A DNA stretch of 63,423 nt, counting the filler. It is 4 parts of 4 records of this genome, joined end to end, with 100 filler letters (N's around TTAATTAATTAA, not from the genome) between each part and the next. Parts side by side here need not be neighbours in the genome. Positions count along the whole stretch, not along the records: positions 1 to 27,800 come from SRR20825010_891; 3 more parts are not named here. One strand, written 5' to 3'. The notes under the pieces were generated by a model that saw only the letters and a list, made by a program, of their open reading frames with translations, did not search any database and was not told where the DNA came from. Both the position numbers and the translations under genes were made by a program. The number at the start of each line of letters is the position of its first letter. Within the stretch, counting starts at the first letter, position 1. Positions 2,291-9,043 of the stretch are shown here, piece after piece.

Positions 2291-2875
2291 ATGACTGAGT
2301 ACGTCCTGATTCTGATCAGCGCTGTGCTGGTAAACAATTTCGTGCTGGTGCAGTTCCTCGGGCTGTGTCCGTTTATGGGGGTGTCCAATAAAGTGGAAAC
2401 CGCCATGGGCATGTCCTTGGCCACTACTTTCGTGCTGACGCTGTCCTCGGTGCTTGCCTACCTGACCTGGGCCTACATTCTGGTGCCCTTTGAGCTGGAA
2501 TACCTGCGCACCATCAGCTTTATTCTGGTGATTGCGGTGGCCGTGCAGTTCACCGAAATGTTCGTGAAAAAAGCCAGCCCGCTGCTCTACCGGGTGCTCG
2601 GGGTCTTTTTGCCGCTGATCACTTCCAACTGTGCGGTGCTAGGCGTGGCCTTGCTGAATGTGCGCCAGGAAGATGCCACCTTTATGTCCTCTCTGACCTA
2701 CGGTTTCGGGGCTGCGCTGGGCTTTTCCCTGGTGCTGATCCTGTTTGCCGCCATGCGCGAACGCATTGCCGTGGCCGATGTACCCGAAGCCTTTCGCGGC
2801 CCCAGCATCGGCCTGATCACCGCCGGTCTCATGTCACTGGCATTCATGGGCTTTTCCGGGTTGATCAAGTTATGA
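2291..2875 (+). CDS. rnfA: Rnf electron transport complex subunit A
   Basis: [19 protein letters not shown] and [12 protein letters not shown] motifs; ATG at 2291. Confidence 0.96.
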
Positions 2876-2937
2876 GAAGCCGCTTGCATGCAAACACGCA
2901 TCACGCCTGCACGCAGATAAATGGAGTGCGCCCATGA
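2872..2937 (+). CDS. 21-aa spacer mini-ORF ([21 protein letters not shown]) coupled to rnfA and rnfB
   Basis: ATG overlaps the rnfA TGA (ATGA 2872-2875); its TGA overlaps the rnfB ATG (ATGA 2934-2937); contains CACGC-type ~7-nt repeats. Confidence 0.55.
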
Positions 2938-3518
2938 CCGCTGTGTTAATCGCTGTGGCAGCGTTGTTGGCTTTGGCGGCTGTGTTCGGTGCCGTGCTCG
3001 GCTTTGCTTCGGAAAAATTCAAGGTAGAAGGCGACCCGATCGTCGAGCAGATTGACTCGCTGCTGCCGCAAACCCAGTGCGGTCAGTGTGGCCACCCGGG
3101 CTGCCGCCCCTATGCGGAAGCCATTGCCGAGGGCGAAGAACACAATCGCTGCCCACCAGGCGGGCAGGACACCGTGGTGGCGCTGTCCGAATTACTCGGC
3201 CGTGAAGAACTGACACTGGATAATGAAGGCGCAGAAGACGCCAACGTGGCCAAGGTCGCCTACATCCGCGAAGACGAGTGCATTGGTTGCACCAAATGCA
3301 TCCAGGCCTGCCCGGTGGATGCCATCGTCGGCGCCGCCAAGTTGATGCACACCGTCATTGTTAATGAATGCACCGGCTGCGACCTCTGTGTGGAACCCTG
3401 TCCGGTGGACTGTATCGATATGCTGGAAGTGAAGCCGACCTTGCAAACCTGGGGCTGGCAGCGCCCGGCCGGGATTGGTGAGCGCCCGGACAGCCGCATT
3501 GAGGTGGTGAATTTATGA
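2934..3518 (+). CDS. rnfB: Rnf subunit B (ferredoxin-like)
   Basis: N-terminal TM helix, [14 protein letters not shown] and two CxxCxxCxxxCP clusters. Confidence 0.96.
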
Positions 3519-3604
3519 GACGCCAGACGCAGGACGCCGAACGCATGACGCTTGTGCCGTGCCACTCTGATTTGCCCCTGCATGGCCGGAGATTGTTGCC
3601 ATGA
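3515..3604 (+). CDS. 29-aa spacer mini-ORF ([29 protein letters not shown]) coupled to rnfB and rnfC
   Basis: ATGA overlap with the rnfB stop (3515-3518) and the rnfC start (3601-3604); GAGGTG SD-like motif upstream; five GACGCnn-type heptamers. Confidence 0.55.
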
Positions 3605-3685
3605 GCCAAGCGCAAACAAACAAAACCCGAAAAACGCGCTCTGTTTTTGCGCGTCTGGCATCGGGCATTCGGCGTCCTGCGTCCA
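3519..3685. repeat. Inverted pair of heptamer arrays spanning the rnfC start
   Basis: gacgcca gacgcag gacgccg aacgcat gacgctt (3519-3553) and gcgtctg gcatcgg gcattcg gcgtcct gcgtcca (3651-3685); perfect 16-bp IR at 3526-3541/3668-3683. Confidence 0.8.
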
Positions 3686-6567
3686 TTCATGACTTCCATG
3701 GCGGCATCCACCCGCCGGAAATGAAACACCTGTCCAACGGCACGCCCATCACCGCCGGCCCGCTACCGCAACAGCTGATATTACCGCTGAACATGCACAT
3801 CGGCGCACCGGCCAAACCGCTGGTGGCACCCGGTGACAAGGTTCTCAAAGGACAGATGATTGCCGAGCCCATCGGTGCCGTAAGCGCCGCGATCCATGCG
3901 CCAACCTCCGGTACGGTCAGCGCCATTGGTCCGCGCCCCATTCAACACCCCTCAGGCATGGATGCGGTCTGTATCGTCATCGACACCGATGGCGAAGATC
4001 AGTGGATTGAGCATCAGGGCACCATCGACTACACCGAAAAAAGCCCGGCTGAACTGGTCGATTTGATTCGCCACGCCGGCATTGCCGGTATGGGCGGCGC
4101 AGGCTTTCCTACCAGCATCAAGGTAAACCTTGGCGACCATCAGCGCGTCGAGCAGCTAATCATCAATGCGGTGGAGTGCGAACCCTACATCACCGCCGAC
4201 GATCGCCTGATGCGCGAACGCGCCGCGCAAATCATCACCGGCATCCATATTCTTCAGTATTTGCTCAACCCCCGTCGCACCTTAATCGGCATCGAAGACA
4301 ACAAGCCCGAGGCCATTTCCGCGATCAAGCGGGCCTGCAAGGGCTGCGATATCGAAGTGCGCGTAGTGCCCACCAAATACCCCTCCGGCGGCGAGAAGCA
4401 GCTGATTCAGTTGCTCACCGGCAAGGAAGTCGCCAGTGGTCAATTGCCCGCCCAAGTCGGTGTGGTCTGCCAGAACGTGGGCACCGCCTATGCCATCAAG
4501 CGGGCCGTATGTGATGGCGAACCATTGATTTCCCGGGTCACCACCCTCACCGGCGACGGCGTCAGCCAGCCCGGTAACTACGAGGTGCTGCTGGGCACCC
4601 CGGTGCGCGACTTACTGGCACACGGCAATCTGGCTGGGCTGGACATCGGCCGGCTGGTCATGGGTGGGCCAATGATGGGCTTCACCCTGCACAACCCGGG
4701 CGTGCCCGTGGTGAAAACCACAAACTGCATCATCGCCGCCAGCCCGGAAGAACTGCCGGAACCGCCACCGGAGCAGCCCTGCATTCGCTGTGGCTCCTGC
4801 GCGGAAGTGTGCCCGGCCAACCTGCTACCCCAGCAACTGTACTGGCACGCCAAAAATGACGATCTGGAAAAAGCGCAGCATCACAATCTCATGGACTGCA
4901 TCGAATGCGGTGCCTGCGCCTATGTCTGCCCCAGCCATATCCCGTTGGTGCAGTACTATCGCTATGCCAAGGCCGAAGTCCGTCAGCAGGCGGCGGATCA
5001 GGTAAAAGCCGACAAGGCCCGCCAGCGCTTCGAAGCGCGCCAGGCACGCATTGAACAGGAGCAGGCGGAAAAAGAAGCCCGCCGGCAGGCGCGCCTGGAA
5101 GCCAACCGCAAGAAGAAAGAAGCCGGCCCGGCAGCGGCCAGCACCGTGGATGTGGCCGCGCTGAAGCAAGCTTCACTGGACGCTTCCAAAGCCTACAAAG
5201 CGGCGGTGAAAGCGGCCAAGGCTGCTGAGGCGGAAGGCGCCGACAACCTGGCTGAGCTGAAAGCCGAAGCGGACCGCCTTAAAGCCGTGGCAGACAAGGC
5301 CAAAGCGGCTGTGCGTGATGCCAAAGACGGCGCCCCCGTTGCGGCAGCTCCCGCAGAAGATACGGTGGCCAAGCTCAAGAAACAGGTCGGTGATGCCTCC
5401 AGCGCTTATAAGGCGGCAGTGAAAGTGGCCAAGGCCGCCGAAGCGGAAGGCGCTGACAATGTGGCTGAGTTGAAAGCCGAAGCAGACCAACTAAAAGCCG
5501 CCGCCGATGCACTCAAGGCGGAACTGCGCGAGGCCAAGACCAATGCCCCCGCCTCTGCCGCGACCGTCGCTCAGGCGGATCCGGTAGCCGAGTTGAAAAA
5601 ACAGGTCGGTGACGCCTCCTCCGCCTACAAGGCCGCCGTCAAAGCCGCCAAGCAAGCAGACGAAGACGGCGCTGATAATGCGGCGGACCTGCGTGCCGAA
5701 GCGGATCGCCTGAAAGCAGTGGCGGATCAATTGAAAGCCGATCTGCGTGACGCCAAGGCCAACGCACCGGCATCCCCTGCTCCTGTCGCACCCACAGCCT
5801 CTACCGCAGCGGCGGCCGAACAACCGGATCCGGTAGCCGCGTTGAAGAAGCAAGTTGGTGATGCCTCACTGGCCTACAAGGCGGCGGTAAAAGCGGCCAA
5901 GCAAGCCGACGAAGACGGCGCCGGCAACGCGGCAGACCTGCACAGCGAAGCCGGCCGGCTGAAAGCCATCGCGGATCAGCTAAAGGTAGAGCTGCGCGAT
6001 GCCAAGGCCGCAGCACCGCCCACGCCGAAAGCGGCGCCGGCAACAACCGCCACCACGGATAGCCCCGCCGTGCCGGAAGAACAGGCACCGCAATCATTGG
6101 CCGAGGTGGATCCAGAGCAGGCAGCCAAGCGCCAGAAACGACTGAAGGGCCTGAAAACCGCCTATAACATGGCGCACAAACAATACAAGGAAGCCCACGC
6201 TGCCTACGAGCGCGCCGAGCGTAATGAAACCGCCAGCGCCGACGAACTTCAGGCTATGCAAGGCAAGATCGACAAGCTCAAGGCCAAGGCGGACAACGCC
6301 CGCGATGCGCTGGACGCACTCGTCGAAGAAGCCAAGGCGGATATCCGCGCCCATACCGGCAAGGATTTGAAAACCCTGAAGCTGGAAGCTGCGCGTGCAG
6401 AAAGCGCCCTGGCCGATAAGCAGCAGGAACTGGAACAGCAACGCAGCAGCGCATCAGAAGACACTCTGGAAGCCCTTAGCTCAGAACTCCAGGCCCTGGA
6501 AAGCGAAACCCAGATTGCCCGCAAGGCGCTCAAGCAGGCGGTAGAAGAACAAGGATTGGCAGAATGA
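3601..6567 (+). CDS. rnfC: Rnf subunit C with a very long repetitive helical C-terminal extension
   Basis: FHGGIHPPEMK, GMGGAGFPT, ECEPYITADD, KYPSGGEKQL and two 4Fe-4S motifs. Confidence 0.96.
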   Translation: MSQAQTNKTRKTRSVFARLASGIRRPASIHDFHGGIHPPEMKHLSNGTPITAGPLPQQLILPLNMHIGAPAKPLVAPGDKVLKGQMIAEPIGAVSAAIHAPTSGTVSAIGPRPIQHPSGMDAVCIVIDTDGEDQWIEHQGTIDYTEKSPAELVDLIRHAGIAGMGGAGFPTSIKVNLGDHQRVEQLIINAVECEPYITADDRLMRERAAQIITGIHILQYLLNPRRTLIGIEDNKPEAISAIKRACKGCDIEVRVVPTKYPSGGEKQLIQLLTGKEVASGQLPAQVGVVCQNVGTAYAIKRAVCDGEPLISRVTTLTGDGVSQPGNYEVLLGTPVRDLLAHGNLAGLDIGRLVMGGPMMGFTLHNPGVPVVKTTNCIIAASPEELPEPPPEQPCIRCGSCAEVCPANLLPQQLYWHAKNDDLEKAQHHNLMDCIECGACAYVCPSHIPLVQYYRYAKAEVRQQAADQVKADKARQRFEARQARIEQEQAEKEARRQARLEANRKKKEAGPAAASTVDVAALKQASLDASKAYKAAVKAAKAAEAEGADNLAELKAEADRLKAVADKAKAAVRDAKDGAPVAAAPAEDTVAKLKKQVGDASSAYKAAVKVAKAAEAEGADNVAELKAEADQLKAAADALKAELREAKTNAPASAATVAQADPVAELKKQVGDASSAYKAAVKAAKQADEDGADNAADLRAEADRLKAVADQLKADLRDAKANAPASPAPVAPTASTAAAAEQPDPVAALKKQVGDASLAYKAAVKAAKQADEDGAGNAADLHSEAGRLKAIADQLKVELRDAKAAAPPTPKAAPATTATTDSPAVPEEQAPQSLAEVDPEQAAKRQKRLKGLKTAYNMAHKQYKEAHAAYERAERNETASADELQAMQGKIDKLKAKADNARDALDALVEEAKADIRAHTGKDLKTLKLEAARAESALADKQQELEQQRSSASEDTLEALSSELQALESETQIARKALKQAVEEQGLAE
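5152..6006 (+). repeat. Four ~58-aa intragenic helical repeats in RnfC separated by Ala/Pro linkers
   Basis: VAxLKKQVGDASSAYKAAVKAAK...EADRLKAVAD.LKA.LRDAK units start at about 5152, 5365, 5584 and 5833. Confidence 0.92.
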
Positions 6568-6665
6568 CACAACGCTGGCACGCCATCACGCAACAGGCTT
6601 CACGGGGAAAAGCGCTAGGGCGAAAATTCTCCGCCGTCAGAACGGCAAAGGCTGAACCGGCATGA
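6564..6665 (+). CDS. 33-aa spacer mini-ORF (MTQRWHAITQQASRGKALGRKFSAVRTAKAEPA) coupled to rnfC and rnfD
   Basis: ATGA overlap with the rnfC stop (6564-6567) and the rnfD start (6662-6665); degenerate CACGC-type ~7-nt repeats. Confidence 0.55.
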   Translation: MTQRWHAITQQASRGKALGRKFSAVRTAKAEPA

Positions 6666-7690
6666 GCCTGATTACGTCCACCTCACCCCATGCCACGGTG
6701 AAAAACAACACCGGTGCCTTCATGCGCCAGGTGATCTACGCCACCCTGCCAGGCCTTGCCGTCCTCACTTGGCAGTTCGGCTGGGGTTCGGTGATCAATG
6801 TGCTGTGGGCGGTCATCGTTGCGCTGGTCAGCGAGGCACTGTTCCTGAAAGCCCGAGGGCGCAACATCGCCTTCTACCTGAAAGACTACAGCGCCGTGGT
6901 CACCGCCGTTTTGCTCGGGCTCGCCCTGCCGCCCACCGCCCCCTGGTGGCTGACCCTGATCGGCGTGAGCTTTGCCATCATCGTGGCCAAGCAACTCTAT
7001 GGCGGGCTGGGCATGAACCCCTTCAACCCGGCCATGGTCGGTTATGTGCTGCTGCTGATTTCCTTCCCGGTGGCCATGACCCAGTGGCTGGCGCCCGGTG
7101 AGCCACTATCGTTTGTGCAAAGCTGGCAGCTGTTCACCGGACAGCTTCCGGTGGATGGCCTTAGCGGCGCCACTCCCCTGGACACGTTCCGCACGGTCCA
7201 GAGTTCTGCCACTGACACCGCAAACGCGCTGGCTAACCAGGGCATTCTGCATGGCCAGTTTGCCGGGCTGGGCTGGGAATGGGTCAATCTGGCGTTTCTG
7301 CTGGGCGGGCTGTATCTGATCAGCCGCAAGATCATCACCTGGCACATTCCCGTCGGCTTTCTCGCCGGCCTGGGCCTGCCTGCCCTGCTGGCCTGGCTGA
7401 TTGATCCGGTGCGCTTTGCGGATCCCCTCTTCCAGATGTTTTCCGGCGGCGCCATGCTGGGCGCGTTCTTTATCGCCACCGACCCGGTCAGCGCCGCCAC
7501 CAGCCGCACGGGCCGCCTGATCTATGCACTGCTGATCGGCGTGCTGATCTGGGTGATTCGCAGCTTTGGCGGCTACCCGGACGCGGTGGCGTTTTCGGTA
7601 TTGCTGTTGAACTTGTCTGCACCCTTTATTGATTACTACACCCAGCCGCGAACCTACGGGCACAAGTCATCCAATCGAGGGGTCAGCTGA
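6662..7690 (+). CDS. rnfD: Rnf subunit D
   Basis: AKQLYGGLGMNPFNPAMVG, SGATPL (FMN-Thr) and FFIATDPVS motifs. Confidence 0.96.
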   Translation: MSLITSTSPHATVKNNTGAFMRQVIYATLPGLAVLTWQFGWGSVINVLWAVIVALVSEALFLKARGRNIAFYLKDYSAVVTAVLLGLALPPTAPWWLTLIGVSFAIIVAKQLYGGLGMNPFNPAMVGYVLLLISFPVAMTQWLAPGEPLSFVQSWQLFTGQLPVDGLSGATPLDTFRTVQSSATDTANALANQGILHGQFAGLGWEWVNLAFLLGGLYLISRKIITWHIPVGFLAGLGLPALLAWLIDPVRFADPLFQMFSGGAMLGAFFIATDPVSAATSRTGRLIYALLIGVLIWVIRSFGGYPDAVAFSVLLLNLSAPFIDYYTQPRTYGHKSSNRGVS

Positions 7691-8337
7691 TGATGCGCCA
7701 TGCCATCACCAAGAACGCGGTCATCCTCGGGCTGTTTGCCATCGGTACCGCCGCCACCCTGGCCATTACCAACGAAGCCACGCTGGATCAGGTCCGTTGC
7801 AATAAACAACAAGCACTGATGACATCGCTGAACCAGGTCATGCCTCACGACCAGCACGACAACGATTTGCTCACCGACCGCATCACCGTGAGCGACCCGC
7901 TGCTGGGCCGCAACGAGCACCACCTCTATCGGGCCCGCCTCAATGGCGAGGACAACGGCGCCGTACTGGAAGCCACCGCGCCAGACGGTTACGGTGGCGC
8001 CATTGCCTTGATTGTTGGCGTGGATACGCAAGGGCAGGTCCAGGGCGTACGTGTGGTGCCGCCACACAATGAAACCCCGGGTCTGGGCGACAGCATCGAA
8101 ACCAAGAAATCCGACTGGATTCTGGGTTTCAACGGCCATTCTCTGGATAACCCCGGCCCATCGGGCTGGGCCGTGAAAAAAGATGGCGGCGACTTCGACA
8201 GCTTTACCGGCGCCACCATTACCCCTCGGGCGGTGGTCGGTGCAGTGCACCGTGCGTTGCAGTATTTTGCGGCCAACCAAAACAATCTCTTCAGTGCCCC
8301 TGCGGACACCACCCCGGTGGAGACCTGTGATGAGTGA
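7690..8337 (+). CDS. rnfG: Rnf subunit G
   Basis: [16 protein letters not shown] and [12 protein letters not shown] (FMN-Thr) motifs. Confidence 0.96.
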
Positions 8338-9043
8338 TGTGAACTACAAAAAAATCAGCATGGATGGCTTGTGGAATAACAACCCTGCCACCGTGCAGAT
8401 TCTTGGCCTGTGTCCATTGCTTGCGGTCACCGGTTCCGTGGTGAATGCCATGGGCCTGGGCTTGGCAACACTAGTGGTGCTGATGGGCTCCAACGCCTGT
8501 GTCTCGCTGATTCGAAATTACGTCACTGATGCGGTGCGTCTACCCGCCTTTGTGATGATTATCGCCGCCATGGTGACGGTGATCGAAATGCTGATGCAGG
8601 CCTACACGTTCGAGCTGTACGAAATCCTCGGCATCTTCATTCCGCTGATCGTGACCAACTGCGCCGTGCTCGGCCGCGCCGATGCCTTTGCCAGCAAGAA
8701 TGCCATCCTGCCCTCCATGGTGGACGGTTTCATGATGGGCTTGGGCTTCCTGGTAATCCTGCTGATTCTGGGCGGCATGCGTGAACTGGTTGGCCAGGGC
8801 ACCCTGTTCACCAACATGCAGCTGCTGTTCGGGCCCATGGCGGCCAACTGGGAACTCACTGTCATCGACAACTACGGTGGTTTCCTGCTGGCCGTCCTGC
8901 CTCCCGGGGCCTTCCTGGGCCTGGGCCTGATCATCGCCGGCAAGAACGTGATCGACAAACACCTGAAAGAAGCCCAAAAACGTAAAGCCAGCGACGAACC
9001 CAAAGTCAGCCGCCGGGTACGCACCACCGGTAAAGTCAGTTAA
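8330..9043 (+). CDS. rnfE: Rnf subunit E
   Basis: [17 protein letters not shown] and PLIVTNC motifs; ATG at 8330 overlaps the end of rnfG. Confidence 0.96.

What the first reader, a model, noticed from the sequence alone, without database searches (positions are those of the whole stretch)
2872..6665. Three heptamer-repeat 'translational relay' mini-ORFs fill successive rnf gene junctions
Seen in sequence: the rnfA-B, rnfB-C and rnfC-D spacers each start with ATGA (the ATG overlaps the upstream TGA), stay open for 21, 29 and 33 codons, and end in a TGA overlapping the next gene's ATG. ATGA-to-ATGA distances are 62, 86 and 98 nt, all in the one frame that permits this. The peptides are unrelated, but all three spacers carry ACGC-core ~7-nt repeats just after the first ATGA. 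The other junctions (D-G, G-E) overlap directly, so the operon is an unbroken coupling chain. Inference: a small non-autonomous element inserts at ATGA stop/start overlaps, duplicates ATGA and stays harmless by passing ribosomes along. These may be remnants of heptamer-flanked cassettes such as those I recall carrying four-helix-bundle genes. They could also tune subunit stoichiometry.
Basis: partly seen in the sequence, partly recalled or inferred. Interest (0 to 1): 0.85.

Follow-up and report, generated by a model that had tools for sequence, protein, structure and literature searches.

The report
Relay mini-ORFs bridging repeat-invaded rnf junctions
Three gene junctions of a respiratory (rnf) operon have been invaded by short 7-base repeat arrays, and each insert is spanned by a throw-away reading frame, kept open across many related species, that probably hands ribosomes from one gene to the next, much as MIRU repeats are thought to do in mycobacteria.

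Summary
The rnfA-B, B-C and C-D spacers each run from ATGA to ATGA (62, 86 and 98 nt). They are open for 21, 29 and 33 codons and carry ACGC-core heptamers found nowhere else in the window.

Relatives have empty ATGA or GTGA overlaps at the same junctions, or inserts of 18-182 nt. Across 38 distinct insert alleles the relay frame holds 2 stops; the other two frames hold 50 and 24. This holds despite hypervariable sequence and nested copies of two other repeat families.

In 1.6 Mb of a relative, the only ATGA-to-ATGA frames longer than 13 codons are the three rnf junctions.

The heptamers belong to a dispersed family that usually sits just after any stop codon, so ATGA is not its general target. 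The same heptamers flank four-helix-bundle (PF05635) genes in relatives.

Best reading: selection keeps ribosomes flowing through repeat inserts in an ancestrally overlap-coupled operon. Translation itself was not tested.

The closest known case is the mycobacterial MIRU. Earlier notes of this scan describe the same design on other DNA. I class it as a new variant of a known kind.

The parts
2291..2875 (+). rnfA (Rnf-Nqr membrane subunit). Its TGA stop (2873-2875) overlaps the ATG of relay ORF 1.
2872..2937 (+). Relay mini-ORF 1: 21 codons, ATGA to ATGA, 62 nt. GGAG lies 8 nt before the rnfB ATG.
   Evidence: Identical in G001. Relatives have homologous or alternative alleles of 18-146 nt, or an empty ATGA.
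2896..2914 (+). Heptamer array 1 (three CACGC-type units).
2934..3518 (+). rnfB (FeS, 4Fe-4S dicluster).
3515..3604 (+). Relay mini-ORF 2: 29 codons, ATGA to ATGA, 86 nt. The spacer is hypervariable: 53 of 82 interior bases are shared with same-species G001, at equal length.
3520..3551 (+). Heptamer array 2: five units with a conserved ACGC core, starting 2 nt after ATGA.
3601..6567 (+). rnfC (988 aa: RnfC_N, Complex1_51K, SLBB and Fer4 domains plus a long Ala/Lys-rich repetitive tail).
6564..6665 (+). Relay mini-ORF 3: 33 codons, ATGA to ATGA, 98 nt.
6572..6591 (+). Heptamer-like array 3 (ACGC cores at 7-8 nt spacing).
6662..7690 (+). rnfD.
7690..8337 (+). rnfG (FMN_bind). Its start overlaps the rnfD stop by 1 nt.
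8330..9043 (+). rnfE. Its start overlaps the rnfG end by 8 nt.

Best explanation
In this bacterial family the rnf operon ancestrally joins its genes by overlapping stop and start codons (ATGA, GTGA, TGATG). That arrangement couples their translation.

Dispersed intergenic repeats have entered three of these junctions. They are mainly arrays of 7-nt units with an ACGC core, a family that normally lodges just downstream of stop codons. After an insertion, the old start codon of the downstream gene stays welded to the upstream stop, together with its Shine-Dalgarno context inside the upstream gene. It now opens a frame that reads into the insert.

Only alleles in which this frame stays open persist. 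The frame must end on, or within a few bases of, the displaced real start codon, which has its own GGAG in most alleles. The mini-ORFs are therefore relay frames with no meaningful peptide. Ribosomes that finish rnfA (or B, or C) re-start at once, translate across the insert, terminate at the next start codon and re-initiate there. The operon stays an unbroken translational chain.

Shown here: the anatomy, the empty sites, the frame conservation, the membership in a repeat family and the genome-wide rarity. Inferred: that the frames are translated, and that reinitiation is the property under selection.
For: (1) Anatomy in the window.

(2) Empty junctions and alternative inserts at the same sites.
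- A-B: 14 places empty and 17 filled, of 31. Sixteen of the filled are perfect ATGA-to-ATGA frames of 47, 62, 83, 143 or 146 nt. One is an 18-nt in-frame extension of rnfB.
- B-C: 15 of 30 filled, with lengths of 20, 65, 71, 83, 86 and 89 nt. All are open and end on ATGA (12), GTGA (2) or TGATG (1).
- C-D in the genus: 6 of 8 filled places are perfect (83, 98, 125, 182 nt). In the other 2 (153, 165 nt) the frame ends at a TAA 6 nt before the ATG.

(3) In the 38 distinct alleles, stops per frame are 2 (relay), 50 and 24, over 1113, 1110 and 1110 codons. Markov resampling gives P(open) of 0.15-0.9 per allele.

(4) The frame survives heavy sequence turnover.
- Window versus same-species G001: the B-C interior is 53/82 identical, while the flanks are 96.5-99% identical.
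- In G002 and G021 the ACGC cores have decayed, yet the 86-nt length and the open frame remain.
- Alleles holding a nested GTAG-type REP pair (L062, L068) stay open to ATGA. That REP is itself dispersed: 250 matches in G014 and 88 in G012, with controls at 0.

(5) Other genera keep ATGA-started frames of 32-74 nt that stop 7 nt inside rnfD.

(6) The left start codon keeps the same upstream context as in empty junctions, GAGGTG before B-C and AAGGA before C-D.

(7) Genome-wide, such frames are rare and spacer length mod 3 is uniform.

(8) The junction state needs at least 5 changes on an rnfA+B tree, yet the frame is always kept.

(9) Contigs from RNA libraries of two studies bridge the spacers, all three in one study and B-C in the other. 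This is weak evidence, because DNA carry-over is not excluded.
Against: There is no ribosome profiling, reporter or proteomic evidence that the frames are translated.

In most alleles each downstream gene has its own GGAG 8-13 nt before its ATG. Independent initiation is therefore possible, and the relay may not be needed for it.

The window's spacers are not unusually structured as RNA (z = 0.60, 0.83 and -0.96). 'Melting a hairpin' is therefore not a strong rationale here.

The alleles share ancestry, so the counts overstate independence.

Two C-D alleles (L064, L069) end 6 nt short of the start, and two species (L078, L079) have a 34-nt spacer with no start codon on the upstream stop.

Elsewhere in G014, most heptamer spacers between co-directional genes carry no such frame.
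Confidence: 0.6

Rival explanations
1. The frames are kept open because the spacer must be covered by translating ribosomes, not because ribosomes are delivered to the next start. Coverage would prevent Rho-dependent polarity, RNase attack or misfolding on an untranslated, C-rich repeat tract inside the operon. The downstream genes would initiate on their own GGAG sites.
For: Most alleles have GGAG 8-13 nt before the downstream ATG. CACGC-type arrays are C-rich and G-poor on the mRNA strand (read). Two alleles end 6 nt before the start, and several end 7 nt after it. That fits a need for coverage as well as it fits reinitiation.
Against: Of the 38 distinct alleles, 34 end with the stop overlapping the start by 4 nt, and one overlaps by 1 nt. 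That precision is more than coverage alone requires. GACGC-type arrays are not G-poor. No Rho data exist.
Confidence: 0.22
2. The inserts were not transposed in. They grew in place by slippage or duplication of the junction itself, so the ATGA at both ends is a by-product of local duplication. The heptamer periodicity would reflect polymerase slippage.
For: A minimal 18-nt allele has two heptamer-like units between two ATGA (L027). Heptamer number and sequence vary between close relatives. Rehm et al. 2015 (PMC4692102; passages read) cite a slippage hypothesis for heptamer excess. Earlier scan note e1-4751139 describes duplicated junctions elsewhere (unchecked).
Against: The long alleles have non-repetitive centres and an inverted array at the 3' end. 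Inserts at different junctions share their ends (A-B with C-D, A-B with B-C). The same heptamers occur at 140-425 places in array-rich genomes. Unrelated alleles (62 versus 143 nt) replace each other among close relatives.
Confidence: 0.12
3. The mini-ORFs encode functional micro-peptides, for example small Rnf subunits or regulators.
For: They have start codons in good context and are conserved as open frames.
Against: The peptides are unrelated between junctions and change almost completely between strains of one species. What is conserved is the ACGC core at a 7-nt period, which cannot be a coding constraint. Empty junctions are common.
Confidence: 0.03
4. Chance: these are ordinary spacers that happen to be open.
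For: Short GC-rich spacers are often open. P(open) is 0.35-0.75 for the three window spacers.
Against: The feature is conserved through at least 11 length changes, all multiples of 3 (my count). Stops per frame are 2 versus 50 and 24. Genome-wide phase is uniform, and only rnf shows long doubly coupled frames.
Confidence: 0.03

Closest known systems
MIRUs, mycobacterial interspersed repetitive units (Supply et al. 1997; known to me only through the review PMC12548453, passages read)
   Same: Short dispersed repeats sit at a gene's start codon inside operons. An ORF within the repeat is coupled to the downstream gene at -4 spacing (ATGA). This is thought to let the insert persist with little effect on expression.
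   Different: The repeat here is an array of 7-nt units with an ACGC core, not a 40-100 bp unit (that unit size is recalled). The host is a gammaproteobacterium-like marine bacterium. The frame is not a family-wide property: most copies follow TAA, TAG or TGA stops without any relay frame. Sequence similarity to MIRUs was not tested.
Dispersed intergenic heptameric repeats: GGGAATC of Xanthomonas and GGGGA(C/T)T of Nostoc (Rehm et al. 2015, PMC4692102, passages read); TAACTGA repeats of Beggiatoaceae (MacGregor 2015, PMC4679880, abstract read)
   Same: Tandem 7-nt units are scattered through intergenic DNA, preferentially between co-oriented genes and close to the stop codon. Some form inverted pairs able to make stem-loops. 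They vary between close relatives.
   Different: The core is ACGC, so they are not G-rich and do not form quadruplexes. The passages and abstract I read do not mention relay ORFs; I did not read the full texts. A link to PF05635 genes is seen here only.
REP/REPIN elements with RAYT (Y1) transposases (Nunvar et al. 2010, PMC2817692; search listing only)
   Same: Abundant extragenic repeats lying 3' of genes. A true GTAG-type REP pair is nested in the C-D spacers of two relatives. Y1_Tnp genes are present in array-rich genomes and were not found in G002.
   Different: The heptamer arrays lack the GTAG head and the single imperfect palindrome. No link between the arrays and Y1 transposases was tested.
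Synthetic bicistronic design, a leader ORF whose stop overlaps the target start (mentioned in PMC12548453)
   Same: A throw-away ORF delivers ribosomes and removes dependence on local RNA structure.
   Different: This is a natural arrangement, coupled at both ends, and created by repeat insertion.

Membership tests
Rnf (Rsx) ion-translocating ferredoxin:NAD+ oxidoreductase operon, rnfABCDGE | Six genes in the order A-B-C-D-G-E with the matching Pfam families | tested here: met
   PF02508, PF04060/PF14697, PF13375/PF01512, PF03116, PF04205 and PF02508, with E-values from 1e-19 to 1e-108.
MIRU-like intercistronic repeat with coupled ORF | An ORF inside the repeat ends in a stop that overlaps the downstream start by 4 nt | tested here: met
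   Met at 3 of 3 window spacers and in 34 of 38 distinct alleles.
MIRU-like intercistronic repeat with coupled ORF | The repeat is a dispersed, multi-copy family in the genome | tested here: met
   ACGC x3 pattern: G001 164 matches (control 39), G009 163 (30), G019 140 (15), G014 359 (37), G016 425 (78).
MIRU-like intercistronic repeat with coupled ORF | Copies generally sit at start codons with a coupled ORF (a property of the whole family) | tested here: not met
   None of 41 arrays sampled without bias has ATGA within 10 nt upstream. Only 3 of 34 heptamer spacers in 1.6 Mb of G014 are ATGA-type, and all 3 are rnf. One further relay-like case is surA-pdxA in G019.
MIRU-like intercistronic repeat with coupled ORF | Sequence homology to mycobacterial MIRUs and a unit size of about 40-100 bp (unit size recalled) | not tested
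   No MIRU sequence was at hand. The unit here is 7 nt.
Dispersed intergenic heptameric tandem repeats (Rehm et al. 2015 type) | Tandem 7-nt units, intergenic, close to the stop codon of a co-oriented gene, sometimes as inverted pairs | tested here: met
   Arrays begin about 0-15 nt after a stop codon in most of the 41 sampled copies (read by eye, no formal count). Inverted pairs occur in the 143- and 146-nt alleles and at many G014 sites.
Dispersed intergenic heptameric tandem repeats (Rehm et al. 2015 type) | G-rich unit able to form a G-quadruplex | tested here: not met
   The unit is (G/C)ACGCNN.
Heptamer-flanked four-helix-bundle (PF05635, 23S_rRNA_IVP) gene cassette (earlier scan note e1-1334054) | A PF05635 gene bracketed by inverted arrays of 7-nt units | tested here: not met
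   The window's spacers hold no gene, and the window has no PF05635-like ORF (best tblastn E = 0.052). In relatives, 15 of 15 examined PF05635 genes (of 21 matches) are so bracketed, 6 of them with ACGC-core units. The rnf copies are at most gene-less relatives.
REP/REPIN | GTAG head plus an imperfect palindrome of 20-40 nt | tested here: not met
   The window spacers lack it. It occurs only nested in L062 and L068.

The most novel reading that the evidence does not exclude
The ACGC heptamer arrays are the gene-less (non-autonomous) form of a little-described class of small mobile elements. The autonomous form would be a four-helix-bundle PF05635 gene, Avd/S23p-like, bracketed by inverted heptamer arrays. 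The protein would recognise its own heptamer and spread or maintain the arrays. In operons built on stop/start overlaps, such as rnf, the copies survive only as doubly coupled relay ORFs. Translational coupling would then shape where a mobile element can live, and PF05635 proteins would gain a function.
Probability: 0.25. Interest if true: 0.85.

Novelty: new variant of a known kind. Interest (0 to 1): 0.6.

Why it matters
This is a natural experiment on translational coupling. Three consecutive junctions of one membrane-complex operon carry fast-evolving junk inserts, and dozens of alleles keep one property only: an open frame welded to both neighbours. That is strong comparative evidence that ribosome hand-over, or at least continuous translation, is under selection in this operon. 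It also extends a design known from mycobacterial MIRUs to an unrelated lineage and an unrelated repeat type.

The side result may matter more. Array abundance tracks the presence of PF05635 genes flanked by the same heptamers. That gives a testable lead on the function of a widespread protein family with no known role outside diversity-generating retroelements.

For annotation, such spacers should not be called as small protein genes.

Tried and rejected
- **Own genome:** none is held, so genome-wide tests used relatives. G001 is the same species, 98% identical over the operon.
- **Earlier notes by place and by sequence:** nothing found.
- **Rfam:** the three spacers and rnfC gave one chance hit (IRES_Bip, E = 0.64, far below its gathering score).
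- **RNA folding:** the window spacers fold no better than shuffles (z = 0.60, 0.83, -0.96). A 143-nt allele gives z = -1.65. I dropped 'strong hairpin' as a feature of the window's copies.
- **Shared right end as an element terminus:** the SD-plus-ATGA end shared by the A-B and C-D alleles gave, at 2 or fewer mismatches, only rnf sites plus chance hits in coding DNA. It is a feature of the rnf junctions, not a dispersed terminus.
- **ATGA as the family's target:** the pattern ATGA + 1-9 nt + heptamers looked enriched (4-28 per genome against a control of 0-1). The sample drawn without bias shows 0 of 41, and many hits lie inside arrays or away from gene ends. Rejected.
- **Gene calling:** a crude long-ORF scan and a GC-frame caller (which missed rnfC) were too noisy. 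A codon-usage caller replaced them.
- **SD inside a GGA-loop hairpin:** this is real in 11 alleles of relatives, with compensatory changes, but the window has only a 2-bp stem.
- **RNA-library contigs:** they bridge the spacers but cannot show translation, and DNA carry-over is not excluded.
- **Literature:**
  - No paper turned up linking heptamer arrays to relay ORFs or to PF05635 genes.
  - No open-text description of MIRU ORFs turned up beyond the review.
  - One search used a genus name that I only guessed. The organism's name was not established and is not used.
  - Supplements were not consulted.

Full report
**What is there.** The window carries an rnfABCDGE operon, confirmed by Pfam matches for all six products. 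Three junctions hold spacers. The ORF list and the sequence show that each spacer begins with ATGA, in which the ATG overlaps the upstream TGA. Each then stays open for 21, 29 or 33 codons and ends with a TGA that overlaps the next gene's ATG. The coordinates are 2872-2937, 3515-3604 and 6564-6665, and the distances are 62, 86 and 98 nt. The D-G junction overlaps by 1 nt and the G-E junction by 8 nt. The peptides are unrelated to each other. A pattern of three ACGC cores spaced 6-8 nt apart occurs 5 times in the 63-kb window, always inside these spacers; shuffles give a mean of 0.13.

**Relatives, A-B and B-C.** No assembly of the window's own genome is held. G001 is the same species, 98% identical over the operon. 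I fetched the RnfB neighbourhood from 30 genomes of two genera (69 of the 70 genomes searched in that family have RnfB).

- At A-B, 14 of 31 places (window included) have the bare ATGA overlap.
- The other 17 have inserts of 18, 47, 62, 83, 143 or 146 nt.
- Sixteen of those are perfect ATGA-to-ATGA frames. The 18-nt insert is in frame with rnfB and simply lengthens it.
- At B-C, 15 of 30 places have no spacer and 15 have inserts of 20-89 nt.
- All 15 inserts are open, and their stop overlaps the rnfC start: ATGA in 12, GTGA in 2 and TGATG in 1.

**Relatives, C-D.** RnfD neighbourhoods came and were analysed, with G014 added.

- Within the genus, 8 places are filled.
- Six are perfect frames (83, 98, 125 and 182 nt).
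- In two (153 and 165 nt) the frame ends at a TAA 6 nt before the ATG.
- Other genera have either overlaps (ATGA or TGATG) or spacers of 32-74 nt. Those spacers start with ATGA and are read through to a stop 7 nt inside rnfD.
- Two species have a 34-nt spacer with no start codon on the upstream stop.

**Is the frame selected?** Several lines say yes.

- In the 38 distinct alleles the relay frame has 2 stops in 1113 codons, both being the TAA just mentioned. The other two frames have 50 and 24 stops in 1110 codons each. Base composition therefore does not explain the open frame.
- First-order Markov resampling gives P(open) between 0.15 and 0.9 per allele. All length differences among perfect alleles are multiples of 3. 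I count at least 11 such changes. The alleles share ancestry, so this overstates independence.
- The sequence itself turns over fast. Between the window and G001 the B-C interior is 53/82 identical at equal length, while the flanking genes are 96.5-99% identical. The differences fall mostly on the three non-core positions of each heptamer.
- On an rnfA+rnfB tree the filled A-B state needs at least 5 changes. Unrelated 62-nt and 143-nt alleles alternate among the window's nearest relatives.
- Two C-D alleles (L062, L068) contain a nested inverted pair of a GTAG-type REP and still read open to ATGA. That REP is itself dispersed: 250 matches in G014, 88 in G012, 28 in G019, 9 in G001 and 0 in G002, with controls at 0.
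- Two other alleles (L064, L069) contain a different dispersed hairpin repeat: 60 matches in G014, 24 in G006 and 15 in G003, with controls at 0.
- So three repeat families have entered these junctions, and the frame persists.

**Is rnf special?** I reassembled 1.6 Mb (40%) of G014 and called genes with a codon-usage model, obtaining 1368 genes and 85% coding. I then scanned all 917 co-directional neighbour pairs.

- 94 pairs overlap by 4 nt.
- 459 pairs have spacers of 10-250 nt, with length mod 3 of 155/152/152.
- 20 spacers follow an ATGA-type stop.
- 5 of those are doubly coupled. Three are the rnf junctions (48, 28 and 22 codons); the other two have 13 and 12 codons.
- Of 34 heptamer-bearing spacers, only the 3 rnf ones are ATGA-type.

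The relay frame is therefore not a built-in property of the repeat. It appears where the repeat sits in an overlap-coupled junction. One further case turned up in passing: in G019 the surA-pdxA spacer holds a heptamer hairpin spanned by a 53-codon frame. That frame runs from ATGA to a TAA 3 nt before the next ATG.

**What the repeat is.** The ACGC x3 pattern is abundant in some relatives and rare in others:

| Genome | Matches | Control |
|---|---|---|
| G016 | 425 | 78 |
| G014 | 359 | 37 |
| G001 | 164 | 39 |
| G009 | 163 | 30 |
| G019 | 140 | 15 |
| G026 | 50 | 24 |
| G024 | 31 | 1 |
| G005 | 16 | 1 |
| G021 | 15 | 0 |
| G002 | 14 | 0 |

Copies are arrays of 3 to more than 10 units. Many are paired with an inverted array to form a hairpin. 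Most begin within about 15 nt after a TAA, TAG or TGA stop. None of the 41 arrays sampled without bias has ATGA just upstream.

This matches the class of dispersed intergenic heptamer repeats described for Xanthomonas and Nostoc (PMC4692102, passages read) and for Beggiatoaceae (PMC4679880, abstract read). All 5 array-rich genomes of the genus have heptamer inserts at A-B. All 4 array-poor genomes of the genus have the empty ATGA there. These genomes are kin, so this is not an independent test. In G002 and G021 the 86-nt B-C spacer persists with decayed cores but an intact frame. The frame constraint and the ACGC constraint therefore look separable.

**The four-helix-bundle link.** There were 21 matches. 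G002 and G021 had none. A control panel matched in 1 of 14 well-known genomes.

I examined 15 of the 21 matches. All 15 genes lie between inverted arrays of 7-nt units, with different unit sequences at different chromosomal sites. Six carry ACGC-core units: G001, G009 (two), G014, G016 and G026. In G005 and G024 the examined genes have other heptamers. For G019 one partial match was not examined.

Presence of an ACGC-flanked gene thus tracks ACGC-array abundance in the genomes I could score (5 with, 4 without). That is a correlation among kin and nothing more. A DGR preprint describes Avd as a pentameric, positively charged barrel similar to S23 ribosomal proteins (10.1101/2023.10.23.563531, passage read). 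That these S23 proteins are the PF05635 family is my recollection, checked by no call; if so, nucleic-acid binding is plausible. The window itself has no such gene, and no rnf junction holds one.

**Mechanism.** The start codon of each relay frame is the ancestral start of the downstream gene. The 25 nt before it are the same in filled and empty junctions and include GAGGTG (before B-C) and AAGGA (before C-D) at Shine-Dalgarno distance. An insert that lands just after the stop cuts the downstream gene off from this site. Ribosomes will still start there.

Either they are carried across in frame to the new start, or they terminate inside the insert. The surviving alleles are those that carry them across. 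Most also have GGAG 8-13 nt before the new start. In 11 alleles of relatives this GGA lies in the loop of a 5-7 bp hairpin with compensatory changes, though not in the window.

I cannot separate reinitiation from simple ribosome coverage (protection from Rho or RNases). The near-universal 4-nt overlap at the 3' end favours reinitiation. RNA-library contigs from two studies bridge the spacers, all three in one study and B-C in the other. One contig switches, exactly after the ATGA at 6567, to the alternative C-D allele seen in G019.

**Comparison with the known.** The review PMC12548453 (passages read) describes MIRUs as apparently mobile repeats that insert at start codons. [quoted passage not shown] It cites Supply et al. 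1997, which I could not read. The design is the same here. The repeat type, the host and the fact that the frame is not family-wide are different.

Earlier notes of this scan describe the same design on other DNA in several phyla. I treat them as unchecked leads, apart from the cassette claim, which I tested in this lineage. My literature searches found no paper on relay ORFs across heptamer arrays or on heptamer-flanked PF05635 genes. Subscription journals are mostly outside that library.

**Verdict.** The feature is real and non-random, and it is most likely a product of selection for continuous or coupled translation across repeat inserts. It is a new variant of the MIRU kind. The association with PF05635 cassettes is the most novel lead.

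Noticed in passing
relatives: L215-L224 and L235-L239 (for example G001:C39, G009:C4, G014:C1 near 3.84 Mb): Every PF05635 (23S_rRNA_IVP, four-helix-bundle) gene examined, 15 of 21 matches in ten genomes, lies between inverted arrays of 7-nt units. The unit sequence differs by chromosomal site. By my reading of the flanking proteins (not tested) these include sites between metK-like and ahcY-like genes and between glyA-like and nrdR-like genes. At one site G009 and G001 carry clearly different proteins.
   Followed up: partly
L137 (G014), L152 and L148 (G019): A heptamer array is read in frame as the first ~15 codons of a surA-like gene. Directly after that gene's stop lies a heptamer hairpin. 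In G019 the hairpin is spanned by a 53-codon frame from ATGA to a TAA 3 nt before the next ATG.
   Followed up: partly
L062 and L068 (C-D spacers of G019 and G012); L064 and L069 (G006, G003); window about 6610-6650: Two other dispersed repeat families are nested in the C-D spacers of relatives. One is a GTAG-type REP inverted pair (250 matches in G014, 0 in G002). The other is a GC-rich hairpin repeat (60 matches in G014, 0 in G002). The window's C-D spacer seems to keep a remnant of the second.
   Followed up: partly
relatives: right ends of the A-B and C-D inserts (for example L002, L017, L021, L022, L062, L067): The Shine-Dalgarno GGA sits in the 3-nt loop of a 5-7 bp hairpin 11 nt before the ATG. 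Compensatory and G-U changes between alleles preserve the stem. This resembles the GGA-in-loop sites bound by CsrA/RsmA (recalled, not tested). It is absent from the window's alleles.
   Followed up: partly
window 5000-6560: rnfC is 988 aa long because of a C-terminal Ala/Lys/Asp-rich region that contains several near-repeats of about 80 residues. Its length varies among relatives.
   Followed up: no
G014:C1, about 4.8-32 kb and 191-218 kb: A block of at least 27 kb occurs twice at an offset of 186,206 nt. It may be a real duplication or an assembly artefact. I removed duplicates before counting.
   Followed up: no
G002 and G021 (whole genomes): G002 lacks nearly all the repeat systems tested: 14 ACGC arrays, 0 GTAG-REP matches, 0 matches of the second hairpin repeat, no PF05635 match and no Y1_Tnp (PF01797) match. 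G021 has 15 arrays and no PF05635 match; the other three searches were not run on it. Close relatives have hundreds of copies and 2-6 Y1_Tnp matches.
   Followed up: partly
window 6567, run X5: An environmental RNA-library contig follows the window up to the ATGA of the C-D junction. It then continues with the alternative heptamer allele known from G019. Both alleles therefore coexist in nature, with the break exactly at ATGA.
   Followed up: no
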